Positions 18,001-21,000 of a stretch of DNA of 64,000 nucleotides are shown here, piece by piece. Source of the DNA: Leucoraja ocellata (lineage: Eukaryota); assembly GCA_036785375.1 (NCBI GenBank), contig JAWMAR010000361.1, positions 806,001-870,000 on the forward strand. The letters are read 5' to 3'. Made by a program: the position numbers. Each line of letters opens with the position of its first letter. Position 1 is the stretch's first letter.

Positions 18001-21000
18001 GACTGTGGGAGCTCCAAGCCGCGGGAGCTTCGACCGCTCCGTCGCAGGAGTTTCGATCGCTGTCTGTGGGAACATCGATCGCCCTGACTGTGGACGGTTC
18101 AACTCCCCCGACCGTGGGAGAAAACGAAGAGAGAGGATTCGACTTTATTGCCTTCCATCACAGTGAGGAATGTGGAGGAGTCGCTGTGGTGGATGTTTAT
18201 GTCAAGTTTTTTGTAGTTGTGTGTCTTATTGCTTTTTTGATACGACTGTATGGCAAATCAAATTCCGCGTATGTTGCAAAACATGGCTAATAATTTACGA
18301 TTATGATGATGATTATATCAGCTATGATTGAATGGCAGAGTAGACGATGGGCCGAATGGCCTAATTCTGCTCCTATCAGTTATGACCGTGACCTTATGAA
18401 CAAAGCCGGCCCATGCCATCCATATTAATTTCTACATGTAGAGACACTTCACTTCTCCCATTTCTGAAACCTGATCAGATCATTGATAAAGTGTCACACA
18501 GCGAAACTTCTGCAACGCCAGATGAATGGGCCGGATTGCAATAGATTCGGGCAACACAAAAGTTAATTCTGCATGAGAAATGGTGTTTATAGGGATTATC
18601 TTTAAAGACTTCTTCAGTAGAGCTGTCATGGTGGATCGAAGTTTCTCAATCATCCATCAAGCGTACAATAAAAAAAGTGTTGTTTCCCTGGGGTTGAGGA
18701 GAGCAGTTGTTGCAGATGTGTTTTCTCTGCGTGGTGCCCAACATTGCCATATCATATGAACCTTAGCAGGGAAAAATGCTACAGCGAATGTTGTTTTACT
18801 TAAGCCAAGCAGCTTAGCATTGTAGCTAACTCGACTTGCAAGTCACAAATCTGTGCAAAAAACATAGGGGACTCAGGTGTCAGTGTCAATCTCTGCAAGT
18901 TTAGCGCAAGTAAAAAGAATCAGAGCACTAGCCATGCCTTTGGAATGCCTGCATGAGAACTTGGTGTCTGTATAAAGAATGAAAATGAGGAAGGACTTGT
19001 GGAAGCAGTTTAACCCGGAACTGCAGGTGCTGGTTTACACCGAAGATAGACACAAATTGCTGGAGTAACTGAGTGGCAGCATCTCTGGATAGAAGGACTG
19101 GGTGGCATTTTGGGTCGAGACCCTTCTTCAGACTGAGGAAGGAAATTGAATTAATGGCATTTATGTACAGAGGGATCTCAGGGTCCAAGTCCATAACTCC
19201 CCAGAAAGTGGCCACACATGTAAATAGAGTATGCATGCTTTCAAAAGTCAGGGCATTGTGTACAAGAGTCAGGAAATCGCGATGCAACTTTACAGGACAC
19301 ATTTGGAGCATGGCACGCAGTTCTGGTTGCCCCAGTACTAGAATTATGTGCAGGCTTTGGAAAAGGTGCAGAGGTTTGCCTGAATGATGCCTTGGTTAGG
19401 GGGAGAGGTCGGAAAAACTTGCATTTTATTTTCTTGGAATGTTGAAGTATATAAAGTATATACAATTCTGAGAGTCATATATAAGGTAGACAGTCAGAAT
19501 CTATTCCCAAATGTAAATATCATACACTAGATACGGCCATGTTTAAAGAATTTGTGCAGGGCAAGTTTTTTTTTCCAAGGAAGGTGGTGAGTGTATGTAC
19601 ACACTGTGGATGGCACAATTGTAATCATGTATTATCTTTGGTCAGCACGCATCAAAAGCTTTTCACTGTACCTCGGTTCACGGGACAATAAATGGAACTA
19701 AATTGTTGTAATTGTAACTGTAATTGTTATATGGTTATATGGTTATAAACTCAAATGCCTGAAACACACACTGCTGGGGGTGTTGTGGAAGTGGATATAA
19801 TAGTGGCATTTACCCTTTGGATGGGCTCATAGATATGCAGGCAATCGAGAGATATGGATTATGTGCAGAGACATAAGAATTAGTCTCGGCATCAAGTTTG
19901 GGAAGGACATTGTGGGCCAAAGGGCCTGTTCTTGTGCTGTACTTTACTTTGTTCATTATTACAAGCTTAGTACATTGAAAAATGCTTTACTGATGGTGAA
20001 ATTAATTTGGTCAGTCACCCCTGTAACATAGAAAACATGCAAAGGACCAGCCGGGGTTAGGGTGTCAAGAAGAATTAGTGTTCCTTGGTGAAAGATCAGA
20101 TATTAGTGGAGTAAGTTCATGTTCTCTACCAAATCACTTTTTCAGGGATGAACTCCCTTTCACAGAGCTGTCTTAACATGTGTTTAAGAGGGAACTGCAG
20201 ATGCTGGAGAATCGAAGGTTACACAAAAAAGCTGGAGAAACTCAGCGGGTGCAGCAGCATCTATGGAGCGAAGGAAATAGGCAACGTTTCGGGCCGAAAC
20301 CCTTCTTCAGACTGATCGGGGGCGGGGGTGGGTGGGGACAAGAAAGGAAAAAGGAGGGAAAAGGAGGAGTCTTAACATGTAATGGCAACATCAGCAGTTA
20401 TTCCCAAAAGTGCTTCATTGCAGTAACAATGTGTAGGAAGGAACTGCAGATGCTGGTTGAAACCGAATATAGATCCAAAATGCTGGAGTAACTCAGCGGG
20501 ACAGGCAGCATCTTTGGAGAGAAGGAATGGGTGACGTTTCGGGAGGAGACCCTTCTTCAGACTGGGAAGGGTCTCGCCCCGAAACATCACTCATTCCTTC
20601 TCTCCAGAGATGCTGCCTGTCCCGCTGAGTTACTCCAGCATGTTGTGTCTACATTGCAGTAACAGATAGGTTGGCCCTTGTGACAATGAACCACTTGTGG
20701 GTCCCGACAGTTGTTATGGTCTTATATCTTTCCATTAGAGGACATTCTAAGAATAGCGCAAATGGTTCACCTTATAAAAAAGGGGTAGTGGGGATAATAG
20801 TTCATCTTAAGGCATGTAAATGGATCAAGGATTAATATTTTATCCCAGTGTATTTTTGGCTGTGAAATATCACTTCAAGGCTCTTAATACAGAGTTGAGG
20901 TTATCACCATGTTGACTCCTGTGAGAATCAAGTACTCAAAAGGATTGCTTTTGGGGCGGTATAACCTAATGGTATGTAATGTACATTGTTCAATGTTATT

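What the first reader, a model, noticed from the sequence alone, without database searches (positions are those of the whole stretch)
20416..20664. Short Penelope-derived fold-back units inserted as discrete TSD-bounded hairpins
Seen: roughly 15 units of ~110-230 bp, each made of two head-to-head copies of a PLE 3' terminal repeat with no coding sequence. Several have clean TSDs of variable length: 13 bp here, 16 bp (54027/54265), 12 bp (54491/54693) and 9 bp (58482/58703). Half-units also have TSDs: 11 bp (14450/14559) and 12 bp (20170/20369). The fold point differs in every copy. Known: PLEs often carry inverted terminal repeats and make variable TSDs. Inference: the hairpins look like MITEs but are probably primary retro-insertion products, re-made at each event by fold-back during reverse transcription rather than copied from one master palindrome. 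At about one per 4 kb they would seed any host pre-mRNA with ~90-bp dsRNA stems.
Basis: partly seen in the sequence, partly recalled or inferred. Interest (0 to 1): 0.7.

Follow-up and report, generated by a model that had tools for sequence, protein, structure and literature searches.

The report
Penelope retroelement mini-hairpin insertions
The hairpins are real, separately made insertion scars of a Penelope-like retrotransposon, with two shortened copies of its tail end joined head to head, an anatomy already described for this class and seen here in miniature.

Summary
Observation confirmed. At 20430-20651 two inverted arms (90 nt, 90% complementary) sit between an exact 13-bp duplication.

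- **Count and layout:** the window holds 17 such hairpins (113-238 bp). All have fixed element ends outward and shortened ends inward.
- **Origin:** Penelope-like, now shown rather than assumed. The arms are the last ~135 nt of an element whose longer copies carry the end of a GIY-YIG endonuclease reading frame about 225 nt upstream. That frame matches skate and shark RT+GIY-YIG proteins.
- **Made anew each time:** every junction differs, duplications range from 9 to 16 bp, and one hairpin has a paralogous empty site. They are not copies of one master palindrome, so not MITEs.
- **Two outer ends:** position 1 or positions 35-51. Eleven to twelve of 15 complete hairpins carry one of each, and none has position 1 at both ends. 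This matches the published 30-40-bp 'tail' and the two start sites of reverse transcription.

The effect on double-stranded RNA could not be tested. This is a new member of a known kind; interest is moderate.

The parts
20416..20428 (.). Left copy of the 13-bp target-site duplication of hairpin F (the finding)
   Evidence: Exact repeat of 20652-20664. A repeat of 13 bp or more occurred in 1 of 2040 random placements.
20430..20564 (-). Long arm of hairpin F. It covers unit positions 1-135 and reads as antisense on the + strand. The first ~40 nt (20430-20469) are the 'tail'.
   Evidence: 94.8% identical to the 135-nt consensus. The boundary at position 1 is sharp.
20533..20560 (-). Minimal hammerhead-like motif: the CUGAAGA box, one unpaired A, a short stem-loop, the GAAA box, a palindromic CG, then UC
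   Evidence: Pattern match. It has the extra features listed for Penelope min-hammerheads in PMC4209133 (passages). No Rfam hammerhead match.
20566..20651 (+). Short arm of hairpin F. It covers unit positions 126 down to 41, lacks the tail, and ends at the second fixed end.
   Evidence: 95.3% identical to the consensus. It is followed directly by the duplication.
20652..20664 (.). Right copy of the 13-bp target-site duplication of hairpin F
5493..5651 (.). Hairpin A. Outer ends at positions 38 and 1, fold at 99/99. It is nested inside an older long copy.
   Evidence: Four paralogous copies lack it at exactly this point (alignment A2). It has a 9-bp duplication with one mismatch.
8073..8245 (.). 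Hairpin B. Outer ends 9 and 51, fold 91/120.
9876..10026 (.). Hairpin C. One arm is full (1-135); the other is only 23 nt and reaches no fixed end.
   Evidence: weak fold (z -2.5)
10482..10663 (.). Hairpin D. Outer ends 1 and 36, fold 102/116.
15401..15638 (.). Hairpin E. Outer ends 1 and 37, fold 135/132, with a small duplication at the junction.
25753..25932 (.). Hairpin G. Outer ends 41 and 1, fold 95/131.
31690..31855 (.). Hairpin H. Both outer ends lack the tail (46 and 53), fold 135/135. An old subfamily.
   Evidence: 11 variants shared by both arms
32954..33110 (.). Hairpin I. One arm covers 1-116; the second stops at position 90 and reaches no fixed end.
34781..34952 (.). Hairpin J. 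Outer ends 37 and 39, fold 133/109.
34966..35141. Hairpin K, 13 bp to the right of J. Outer ends 22 and 44 (25), fold 106/129.
53441..53666 (.). Hairpin L. Outer ends 40 and 1. The arms share a 7-nt near-palindrome at the fold (position 135).
54043..54265 (.). Hairpin M. Outer ends 7 and 36, with a 15-16-bp duplication at 54027/54265.
54503..54693 (.). Hairpin N. It has a 12-bp duplication at 54491/54693. The left arm appears to start at position 1 with an internal deletion; the right arm ends at 36.
   Evidence: the deletion is my reading of the sequence
55558..55752 (.). Hairpin O. Outer ends 1 and 36, fold 110/91, with 29 nt between the arms.
57029..57141 (.). Hairpin P, the shortest at 113 bp. 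Outer ends 35 and 2, fold 75/67.
58495..58700 (.). Hairpin Q. Outer ends 1 and 44, fold 125/123. Its duplication is 9 bp exact, or 13 bp with one mismatch. Both arms belong to the same subfamily.
   Evidence: 11 private variants shared by both arms
2423..2918 (-). A contiguous, 5'-shortened copy: the end of the GIY-YIG reading frame, then about 225 nt of non-coding sequence, then unit positions 135 down to the end at 37. This copy fixes the sense strand.
   Evidence: tblastn hit of P0026 residues 176-225 at 2918-2769, E 1e-10; sequence read; unit hit
46961..47252 (.). A 292-bp insertion with a 14-bp duplication. An antisense unit arm (positions 44-133) is joined to a sense segment holding the last ~35 codons of the endonuclease frame plus non-coding sequence. 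The two parts do not overlap, as in twin priming.
5312..5910 (-). An older long copy running from the end at position 38 up into the endonuclease tail, interrupted by hairpin A
22212..22559 (+). A long copy: a weak endonuclease-tail remnant, non-coding sequence, then the unit down to the end at position 37
   Evidence: (E 0.057, weak)
39275..39641 (-). A long non-coding copy with the tail (positions 3 to about 367), 96% identical to the consensus over the unit
14460..14553 (-). A solo half-unit (positions 34-127) with an 11-bp duplication at 14450/14559
20181..20363 (-). A solo copy of a second subfamily (positions 1 to about 183) with a 12-bp duplication at 20170/20369

Best explanation
**What the hairpins are.** Each one is the primary product of a single insertion of a Penelope-like retroelement with a C-terminal GIY-YIG endonuclease. 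Its relatives carry a CX4CxxC linker of the Neptune/Nematis type.

**Shown here.**
- Both arms are 5'-shortened copies of the element's last ~135 non-coding nucleotides.
- The fixed 3' ends of the element face outward and the shortened ends meet in the middle.
- The whole hairpin lies between one target duplication of 9-16 bp.
- Every junction is different.

**Inferred mechanism.** The element's protein cuts both DNA strands with a variable stagger. Each freed 3' end primes reverse transcription of element RNA from one of two internal start sites about 36-44 nt apart. These sites are the two fixed outer ends, and the stretch between them is the 'tail'. Both cDNAs stop early, and their ends are joined or copied across each other, often at short palindromic overlaps. 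The result is one arm with the tail and one without.

**Likely consequence.** Any transcript that runs through a hairpin can fold into an imperfect stem of 23-95 bp.

**My odds.** Penelope origin about 0.95. Separate formation at each insertion about 0.9. The two-strand, two-start-site route about 0.55.
For: **Penelope origin.**
- Copy 2423-2918 runs without a break from an endonuclease-tail remnant, through about 225 nt of non-coding sequence, into the unit and to its end.
- The 40-residue frame at 47052-47171(-) is 83% identical to the C-terminus of P0026, an NCBI protein of Leucoraja erinacea with RVT_1 plus a weak GIY-YIG match.
- The same frame matches the shark protein P0027, E 4e-12. 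P0027 has RVT_1 at residues 1-121 and GIY-YIG at 355-432, 23.2 bits against a cut-off of 22.6.
- The CX4CxxC and YIDD motifs are present in these proteins.

**Arrangement.** Of 19 neighbouring arm pairs, 17 are convergent. One is divergent, from two adjacent hairpins. One is same-sense, from a nested insertion.

**Separate origin.**
- All 17 junction pairs are distinct.
- The duplications measure 13, 15-16, 12, 9-13, 8-9 and 9 bp.
- Hairpin A has a paralogous empty site.

**Two fixed ends.**
- Among the 53 hits, 14 outer ends lie at positions 1-5 and 23 at positions 36-50, with few between.
- Eleven of 17 hairpins have one end at 1-9 and the other at 35-51 (12 if N is counted). None has 1-9 at both ends.
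- An exact test for an excess of mixed pairs gives p = 0.008 to 0.085, depending on how N and K are classed.

**Literature.**
- PMC8557442 (passages): Penelope insertions are 5'-truncated, often have an adjacent inverted 5'-truncated copy, carry a 30-40-bp tail often at only one end, and make duplications of variable length.
- PMC11167929 (main text read): the purified lizard element cleaves and extends both strands and starts reverse transcription at two internal sites. The tail is the sequence between them.

**Junctions.** C, H and L share a 7-nt near-palindrome at the fold, and A shares a 2-nt one.

**Folding.** Hairpin minimum free energies have z-scores of -5.5 to -24.3 in 16 of 17.
Against: - No Penelope-type reverse transcriptase and no complete GIY-YIG domain lies in the window. 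Pfam on all 406 stop-free frames of 55 residues or more found only a LINE RVT_1 and ALKBH8_N. The autonomous partner with this exact 3' end has therefore not been seen.
- No head-to-tail pseudo-LTR arrangement occurs in the window. The one candidate proved to be a nested insertion, and no tandem arrays were found.
- No Rfam hammerhead match.
- About 10 of 17 hairpins have no recognisable duplication.
- Seven of 17 junctions are symmetric within 5 nt: A, C, E, H, L, M and Q. A fold-back explains these naturally.
- The one-tail rule is only borderline significant with 15 hairpins.
- Two hairpins (C, I), and the copies at 17509-17933 and 46961-47252, have a second arm that ends at no fixed site. 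More than one route therefore operates.
- Both arms always belong to the same subfamily (3 of 3 informative cases). Fold-back predicts this too.
Confidence: 0.6

Rival explanations
1. **Snap-back.** One cDNA is made on one DNA strand. Its 3' end folds back and primes a copy of itself, and the hairpin is then joined to the other side of the break.
For: - Seven of 17 junctions are symmetric within 5 nt: A 99/99, C, H and L 135/135, E 135/132, M 130/135, Q 125/123.
- Some junctions are perfect or near-perfect palindromes.
- Both arms share subfamily-specific variants in all 3 informative hairpins, H, K and Q.
Against: - A copied-back strand should reach the same outer end as its template. Yet 0 of 15 complete hairpins have the tail on both arms.
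- The shorter arm stops within the same 35-51 interval that 11 of 18 solo copies use as their end.
- Ten of 17 junctions differ by 8-36 nt between the arms.
- The published enzyme extends both strands (PMC11167929, main text).
Confidence: 0.25
2. **Ordinary DNA-transposon MITE.** A palindromic master copy is amplified by a transposase.
For: The hairpins are short and non-coding, have inverted arms and flanking duplications, and are densely dispersed.
Against: - The fold point and arm lengths differ in all 17.
- The duplications vary from 9 to 16 bp.
- The two outer ends are not inverted copies of each other (position 1 against about 40).
- The arms are homologous to the 3' end of a retroelement that follows an endonuclease reading frame.
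- No transposase domain occurs in the 406 frames scanned.
Confidence: 0.02
3. **Two independent insertions.** Two separate solo insertions landed next to or inside each other because the element prefers its own sequence as a target.
For: - The published element can nick its own repeat (PMC11167929).
- Nesting does occur: hairpin A sits inside an older copy, and hairpins J and K lie 13 bp apart.
Against: - Seventeen of 19 neighbouring pairs are convergent with the shortened ends abutting.
- Where a duplication is visible it flanks the pair, not each arm.
- In H, K and Q the two arms share their subfamily variants, and in most of the other pairs the two arms lie at similar distances from the consensus.
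Confidence: 0.05
4. **Mobilisation by the window's LINE.** The units are SINE-like RNAs, or LINE by-products, inverted by L1-style twin priming and moved by the young CR1-like LINE that is abundant in the same window.
For: - A CR1-like reverse transcriptase and many young LINE 3' ends lie in the window.
- Copy 46961-47252 has non-overlapping inverted and direct parts, as twin priming gives.
- The antisense strand has motifs resembling polymerase III boxes. This is my reading against the consensus quoted in PMC8969392.
Against: - The LINE ends in (TTTCTATG)n. The unit has no such end.
- ARAGORN finds no tRNA-like gene.
- The sense strand fixed by the endonuclease tail is opposite to the box-like motifs.
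- In the 17 hairpins both arms cover the same stretch of RNA, overlapping by 23-95 nt. Classical twin priming on one RNA does not give this.
Confidence: 0.05

Closest known systems
Insertion anatomy of canonical endonuclease-bearing Penelope-like elements (Penelope/Poseidon, Neptune, Nematis), as summarised in PMC8557442
   Same: - 5' truncation.
- An inverted 5'-truncated copy joined head to head.
- A 30-40-bp tail at one end only.
- Duplications of variable length.
- A GIY-YIG endonuclease at the C-terminus of the reading frame, with a minimal hammerhead-like motif in the terminal region.
   Different: - Both copies are shortened to 135 nt or less, so nothing remains but a 113-238-bp hairpin.
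- No pseudo-LTR tandem is seen in this window.
- The density is high: 17 in 64 kb.
- I found no paper describing such hairpin-only products as a class. Supplements and figures were not seen.
PAc, the Anolis Poseidon element studied in vitro (PMC11167929)
   Same: - Two internal start sites of reverse transcription whose spacing equals the tail.
- Both DNA strands cleaved and extended.
   Different: - In PAc the start sites lie inside the start of the next reading frame of a tandem. Here they lie about 320-360 nt after the stop codon, in non-coding sequence.
- The paper reports no difference in start site between strands. Here the two ends of one hairpin usually differ.
L1 twin priming (5' inversion). 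This comparison rests on my own knowledge.
   Same: Priming on both strands of a staggered break gives an inverted part and a direct part inside one duplication. Copy 46961-47252 looks like this.
   Different: In twin priming the two parts come from adjacent, non-overlapping stretches of one RNA. In the 17 hairpins both arms copy the same terminal stretch.
MITEs
   Same: Size, lack of coding sequence, inverted arms, flanking duplications and hairpin-forming transcripts.
   Different: No terminal inverted repeats in the strict sense, no fixed duplication length, no shared internal structure, and a retroelement origin.
Non-LTR retrozymes, which are Penelope-derived non-autonomous elements (bioRxiv 10.64898/2026.07.22.740005, abstract and passages; PMC7229834, listing only)
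   Same: Short non-coding derivatives of a Penelope terminal repeat that carry a hammerhead-type motif.
   Different: Retrozymes are head-to-tail tandem units thought to move via circular RNA. Here there are no tandem arrays, and the units are inverted pairs made at insertion.

Membership tests
Penelope-like elements (endonuclease-bearing, C-terminal GIY-YIG) | One reading frame with a reverse transcriptase followed by a GIY-YIG endonuclease | tested here: met
   The test is met through relatives only.
- The window holds endonuclease C-terminal remnants at 2918-2769, 5910-5773 and 47255-47055, with weak ones at 17828-17893 and 22212-22289.
- The homologous shark protein P0027 has RVT_1 at 1-121 and GIY-YIG at 355-432, above the cut-off.
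- No Penelope-type reverse transcriptase lies in the window itself.
Penelope-like elements | Physical continuity between the reading frame and the repeated unit | tested here: met
   Copy 2423-2918(-) runs from the endonuclease tail to the stop at about 2746-2748, through about 225 nt of non-coding sequence, then unit positions 135 down to 37. The same order is seen in 5312-5910 and 22212-22559.
Penelope-like elements | Fixed 3' end with variable 5' truncation | tested here: met
   Outer ends cluster at positions 1-5 (14 hits) and 36-50 (23 hits), while inner ends range from 67 to 248, among 53 hits.
Penelope-like elements | An inverted 5'-truncated copy joined to the insertion | tested here: met
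   Seventeen convergent pairs among 19 neighbouring arm pairs.
Penelope-like elements | A 30-40-bp 'tail', often at one end only, reflecting two start sites of reverse transcription | tested here: met
   The two ends are 36-44 nt apart. One of each occurs in 11-12 of 15 complete hairpins, and none has the tail on both arms. Exact p = 0.008-0.085.
Penelope-like elements | Target duplication of variable length | tested here: met
   9 to 16 bp in 6 hairpins and 11, 12 and 14 bp in 3 solo copies, with controls.
Penelope-like elements | Pseudo-LTR: a partial head-to-tail tandem | tested here: not met
   There are no abutting same-sense pairs except one nested insertion. The direct pair at 2267/2418 is two separate insertions 95 bp apart. 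No tandem arrays were found. A 64-kb window of short old copies is a weak test.
Penelope-like elements | A hammerhead ribozyme motif in the terminal repeat | tested here: inconclusive
   - No Rfam hammerhead at E up to 10, even in a 501-nt search.
- The sense strand does carry the CUGAAGA box, one unpaired base before stem II, a G-C closing pair, the GAAA box, palindromic 15.2-16.2 and no helix III. These are the features listed for metazoan Penelope minimal hammerheads (PMC4209133 passages).
- Five copies keep the exact boxes, against 0 expected by chance. They are related copies, not independent ones.
- Helix I is only 2 bp, and cleavage has not been tested.
MITE (non-autonomous DNA transposon) | Terminal inverted repeats with identical ends, a fixed duplication length, and copies sharing one internal structure | tested here: not met
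   The outer ends differ (position 1 against about 40). Duplications are 9-16 bp. All 17 junctions differ.
L1-type twin-priming inversion | The inverted and direct parts come from adjacent, non-overlapping stretches of one RNA | tested here: not met
   The arms overlap by 23-95 nt in all 17 hairpins. The feature is met only by the separate copy 46961-47252.
Non-LTR retrozymes | Head-to-tail tandem units, each with a hammerhead | tested here: not met
   No tandem array of the unit was found by Tandem Repeats Finder or in the hit map.

The most novel reading that the evidence does not exclude
The mini-hairpins may be natural records of a concerted two-strand integration. In this reading one protein dimer primes the two cut strands from two different start sites, one per strand, which would give the one-tail rule. 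The two cDNAs would then tend to stop and pair at the 5' edge of the minimal hammerhead: 14 of 34 inner ends lie at positions 130-137, and three junctions share a 7-nt near-palindrome. This would be because two template RNAs, or two cDNA ends, are held together there. If so, thousands of short hairpins per genome, each readable end to end, would let the unresolved late steps of Penelope integration be worked out from sequence alone.
Probability: 0.2. Interest if true: 0.6.

Novelty: new member of a known kind. Interest (0 to 1): 0.38.

Why it matters
Penelope-like elements are the least understood class of retrotransposon. How their tandem and inverted structures and their 'tail' arise is still described as unvalidated in the 2024 in vitro study.

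This family leaves very short, complete insertion products in which both ends, the junction and the duplication fit within about 200 bp. They are convenient footprints for testing models genome-wide.

There is also a practical point for annotation. These hairpins imitate MITEs and microRNA precursors: they drew sub-threshold Rfam hits to plant microRNA models. Fragments of the element also sit inside predicted gene models.

Their density, one per 3.8 kb here, means that any long transcript across such a region could carry imperfect double-stranded stems. That consequence remains untested.

Tried and rejected
**Rfam.**
- At gathering thresholds there were 0 matches.
- At E up to 10 over the whole window there were 31 weak matches and no hammerhead family among them. 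Most lie on the hairpins, chiefly plant microRNA-precursor and plastid 3'-UTR models, which score any long hairpin; others lie elsewhere in the window.
- A 501-nt search over a long copy gave two chance hits.
- A single arm folded as RNA is not unusually stable, z -0.46.

**Search for a coding partner in the window.**
- Pfam on all 406 stop-free frames of 55 residues or more found only a CR1-like LINE RVT_1 at 39731-40465(-), ALKBH8_N at 33292-33741(+), and a few matches below cut-off.

**Searches with the open frame that runs through the unit** (44 residues). They returned 25 short or unrelated predicted proteins. Of the 10 longest that I scanned, none had an RT or GIY-YIG domain. This led nowhere.

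**tRNA-derived SINE idea.** I dropped it. ARAGORN found nothing, and the endonuclease tail fixes the opposite strand as sense.

**CR1-like LINE as partner.** I dropped this too, because its 3' end is an 8-bp microsatellite that the unit lacks.

**Pseudo-LTR reading of 5312-5651.** The alignment shows a nested insertion instead.

**Paralogous empty sites for the other 16 hairpins.** None is available in the window.

**Weak hint only.** The C-terminal extension of shark protein P0028 resembles the unit's sense frame at E about 7. I do not rely on it.

**Not done.**
- The genome-contig collection holds only bacteria and archaea, so I did not scan it.
- No eukaryotic genome DNA was at hand, so orthologous empty sites and a genome-wide census remain unchecked.
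Full report
**The observation.** Two inverted arms (20466-20555 and 20566-20655) are 90 nt long, 90% complementary and 10 nt apart. They sit between an exact 13-bp direct repeat at 20416-20428 and 20652-20664, which extends to 16 bp with one mismatch.

Using the long arm as a query gave 51 blastn hits in the window. A 135-nt majority consensus built from 26 copies gave 52 hits covering 4682 bases, 7.3% of the window. 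Below, 'position' means position in that consensus, written in the orientation of the long arm of the finding.

**The set of hairpins.**
- Seventeen pairs of arms lie within 35 bp of each other in inverted orientation. I label them A to Q; they measure 113-238 bp. A degraded eighteenth candidate lies at 44493-44693.
- In all 17 the sharply defined ends of the unit face outward and the variable ends meet in the middle.
- Of the 19 neighbouring arm pairs in the window, 17 are of this convergent kind. One is divergent, where hairpins J and K lie 13 bp apart. One is same-sense and turned out to be a nested insertion.
- No two hairpins share a junction. The inner ends run from 75/67 to 135/135.
- The arms overlap by 23-95 nt (median 67) and are 73-95% identical to each other. 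In most pairs each arm has drifted from the consensus on its own.
- As RNA the hairpins fold far better than shuffled controls. The finding folds at -165.8 kcal/mol, z -21.6. Sixteen of 17 have z between -5.5 and -24.3, and hairpin C has only -2.5 (50 mononucleotide shuffles each).

**Target duplications.**
- Exact flanking repeats of 9 bp or more occur in 4 of 17 hairpins (F 13, M 16, N 12, Q 9), against 15 of 2040 random placements.
- With mismatches allowed, 5 of 17 reach a score of 9 or more, against 6 of 510.
- Among 18 solo copies, 3 have repeats of 11, 12 and 14 bp, against 54 of 3000 controls with 11 bp or more.
- About ten hairpins show no duplication. With arms 3-27% diverged from the consensus, most 9-16-bp duplications would no longer be exact.
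- Hairpin A gives independent proof of discrete insertion. It interrupts an older long copy of the same element, and four paralogous copies run straight through that point. A 9-bp duplication with one mismatch lies at the edges.

**What the unit is.** The window holds no Penelope-type reverse transcriptase. Pfam on all 406 stop-free frames of 55 residues or more found only a CR1-like LINE RVT_1 at 39731-40465(-) and ALKBH8_N at 33292-33741(+), apart from a few matches below cut-off. The link came from longer copies.
- A 292-bp insertion with a 14-bp duplication (46961-47252) joins a unit arm to a 40-residue frame ending in a stop.
- That frame is 83% identical to the C-terminus of P0026, an NCBI protein of Leucoraja erinacea that has RVT_1 and a weak GIY-YIG match.
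- Searching with the endonuclease part of P0026 found the shark proteins P0027-P0029. P0027 has RVT_1 at residues 1-121 and GIY-YIG at 355-432, above the curated cut-off. The window frame aligns to the P0027 C-terminus at E 4e-12.
- These proteins show YIDD, a GIY...YIG core containing cysteines and, in two of them, a CX4CxxC motif upstream. PMC8557442 attributes that motif to the Neptune and Nematis clades (passage).
- tblastn of these proteins against the window found endonuclease-tail remnants at 2918-2769 (E 1e-10), 5910-5773 (E 2e-8) and 47255-47055 (E 1e-13). Weak remnants lie at 17828-17893 and 22212-22289.
- Copy 2423-2918 is contiguous on the minus strand: endonuclease tail, stop, about 225 nt of non-coding sequence, then unit positions 135 down to 37.

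This fixes the sense strand as the reverse of the finding's long arm. It also shows that the unit is the last ~135 nt of a Penelope-like element with a C-terminal endonuclease.

**The two ends and the tail.** Outer ends fall in two clusters. Among the 53 hits, 14 lie at positions 1-5 and 23 at positions 36-50. Position 1 is exact in most copies, while the second end wanders over positions 35-44.
- Eleven of 17 hairpins have one end at 1-9 and the other at 35-51: A, B, D, E, F, G, L, M, O, P and Q.
- N joins them if the 12 nt after its duplication are read as a tail with an internal deletion. That is my reading.
- H and J lack the tail on both arms. K is ambiguous.
- C and I have a second arm that reaches no fixed end.
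- None has position 1-9 on both sides.
- Given the number of tails, an exact test for an excess of mixed pairs gives p = 0.085, 0.028 or 0.008, according to how N and K are classed.

This is the anatomy described for Penelope-like elements. Insertions are 5'-truncated, often have an adjacent inverted 5'-truncated copy, and carry a 30-40-bp tail often at only one end (PMC8557442, passages). The tail equals the stretch between two internal start sites of reverse transcription, in an enzyme that cuts and extends both DNA strands (PMC11167929, main text).

**Hammerhead.** Rfam finds none. The sense strand nevertheless carries the following, in order: the CUGAAGA box, one unpaired A, a stem closed by G-C, the GAAA box, a palindromic CG, then UC. 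No helix III is present.

These are the features that PMC4209133 lists for the minimal, dimer-dependent hammerheads of metazoan Penelope elements, which standard descriptors miss (passages). Five copies keep the exact boxes, against none expected by chance, but they are relatives of one another. Helix I would be only 2 bp. I treat this feature as inconclusive.

**How the hairpins most likely arise.**
- *Shown:* each hairpin is a separate event, with a unique junction, its own duplication of variable length and, in one case, an empty site. Both arms come from the same subfamily in all three informative cases, H, K and Q.
- *Inferred:* both strands of a staggered break prime reverse transcription, one from each start site. 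Both cDNAs stop within about 135 nt, and their ends are joined or copied across each other. In C, H and L the arms share a 7-nt near-palindrome at the fold, and in A a 2-nt one.

It remains possible for the seven junctions that are symmetric within 5 nt. Other routes also operate. The insertion 46961-47252 has non-overlapping inverted and direct parts, as in twin priming. Hairpins C and I, and the copy at 17509-17933, have second arms that begin at arbitrary internal points.

**An unexplained regularity.** Inner ends are not uniform. Fourteen of the 34 hairpin arm ends lie at positions 130-137, at the 5' edge of the hammerhead-like motif, and eight of them lie at 135-137. Longer solo copies read through this point, so it is not the end of the element. 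Three explanations are possible: pausing of the enzyme at the structured motif, a short RNA species starting there, or pairing of two cDNA ends through the near-palindrome. I could not tell them apart.

**Comparison and novelty.** This is a new family, or at least one I could not find described, of a known class, and it shows the class's known insertion anatomy in extreme miniature. I found no paper that treats hairpin-only Penelope products as a class. The full-text searches found none, and searches on skates and elasmobranchs gave nothing relevant. Figures and supplements were not seen and may show such cases.

The hairpins are not MITEs, not retrozymes (no tandem arrays) and not classical twin-priming products.

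**What stays open.**
- The autonomous partner with this exact 3' end.
- Orthologous empty sites.
- The genome-wide frequencies of tail combinations.
- Ribozyme activity.
- Any effect on transcripts.

No eukaryotic genome DNA beyond the window was available.

Noticed in passing
window 31017-31435, with further copies at 12681-12982, 23163-23693, 41378-41668, 56284-56585, 57309-57903, 58149-58463 and 61657-62261: A young CR1-like LINE 3' end of about 315-420 bp. Eight further copies are 88-99% identical to the reference copy. They end in a (TTTCTATG)n microsatellite and are much younger than the Penelope units.
   Followed up: partly
window 39642-41668: A LINE reverse-transcriptase fragment on the minus strand (39769-41377) is followed by a plus-strand LINE 3' end (41378-41668). 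This looks like a twin-priming 5' inversion. It is preceded by a 127-bp plus-strand LINE fragment (39642-39768) that is 99% identical to the young copies.
   Followed up: partly
window 40094-40138: A fragment of about 45 bp of the Penelope unit (positions about 44-83, second subfamily) sits inside the LINE reverse-transcriptase frame. It interrupts a conserved stretch. This is an extremely shortened solo insertion.
   Followed up: partly
hairpins at 5511-5596, 10525-10655, 25765-25880, 34804-34933, 53496-53575, 54099-54238 and 58556-58679: Sub-threshold Rfam hits to plant microRNA precursor and plastid 3'-UTR models, down to E 5e-7. These are artefacts of long hairpins, and such loci would mislead microRNA prediction.
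   Followed up: yes
proteins P0026, P0030, P0014 and P0005: Public gene models contain pieces of these repeats.
- P0026 joins a LINE-type reverse-transcriptase part, which matches the window's CR1-like LINE at 40216-39779, to a Penelope endonuclease.
- A model named neuromedin-U receptor 1 (P0030) matches the endonuclease query.
- An integrin-like model (P0014) matches the unit's open-frame peptide.
   Followed up: partly
unit positions 130-137 across hairpins C, E, F, G, H, I, J, L, M and N: Inner arm ends cluster at the 5' edge of the hammerhead-like motif: 14 of 34 arm ends. The cause is unknown.
   Followed up: partly
window 33292-33741 (+): Pfam ALKBH8_N match (E 2.4e-9, 37.1 bits) in a 150-residue open frame. 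I did not determine whether it is a host exon or part of a repeat.
   Followed up: no
window 2271-2322: A solo unit fragment of about 50 bp (positions 36-87) lies between 7-bp direct repeats, 95 bp from the end of the long copy 2423-2918. It is a separate tiny insertion, not a tandem.
   Followed up: partly
window 17435-17471, 14260-14299, 17110-17151 and 35868-35906: Short tandem repeats unrelated to the finding: (TGAATC)6, two 20-bp doublets and a 10-bp array.
   Followed up: no
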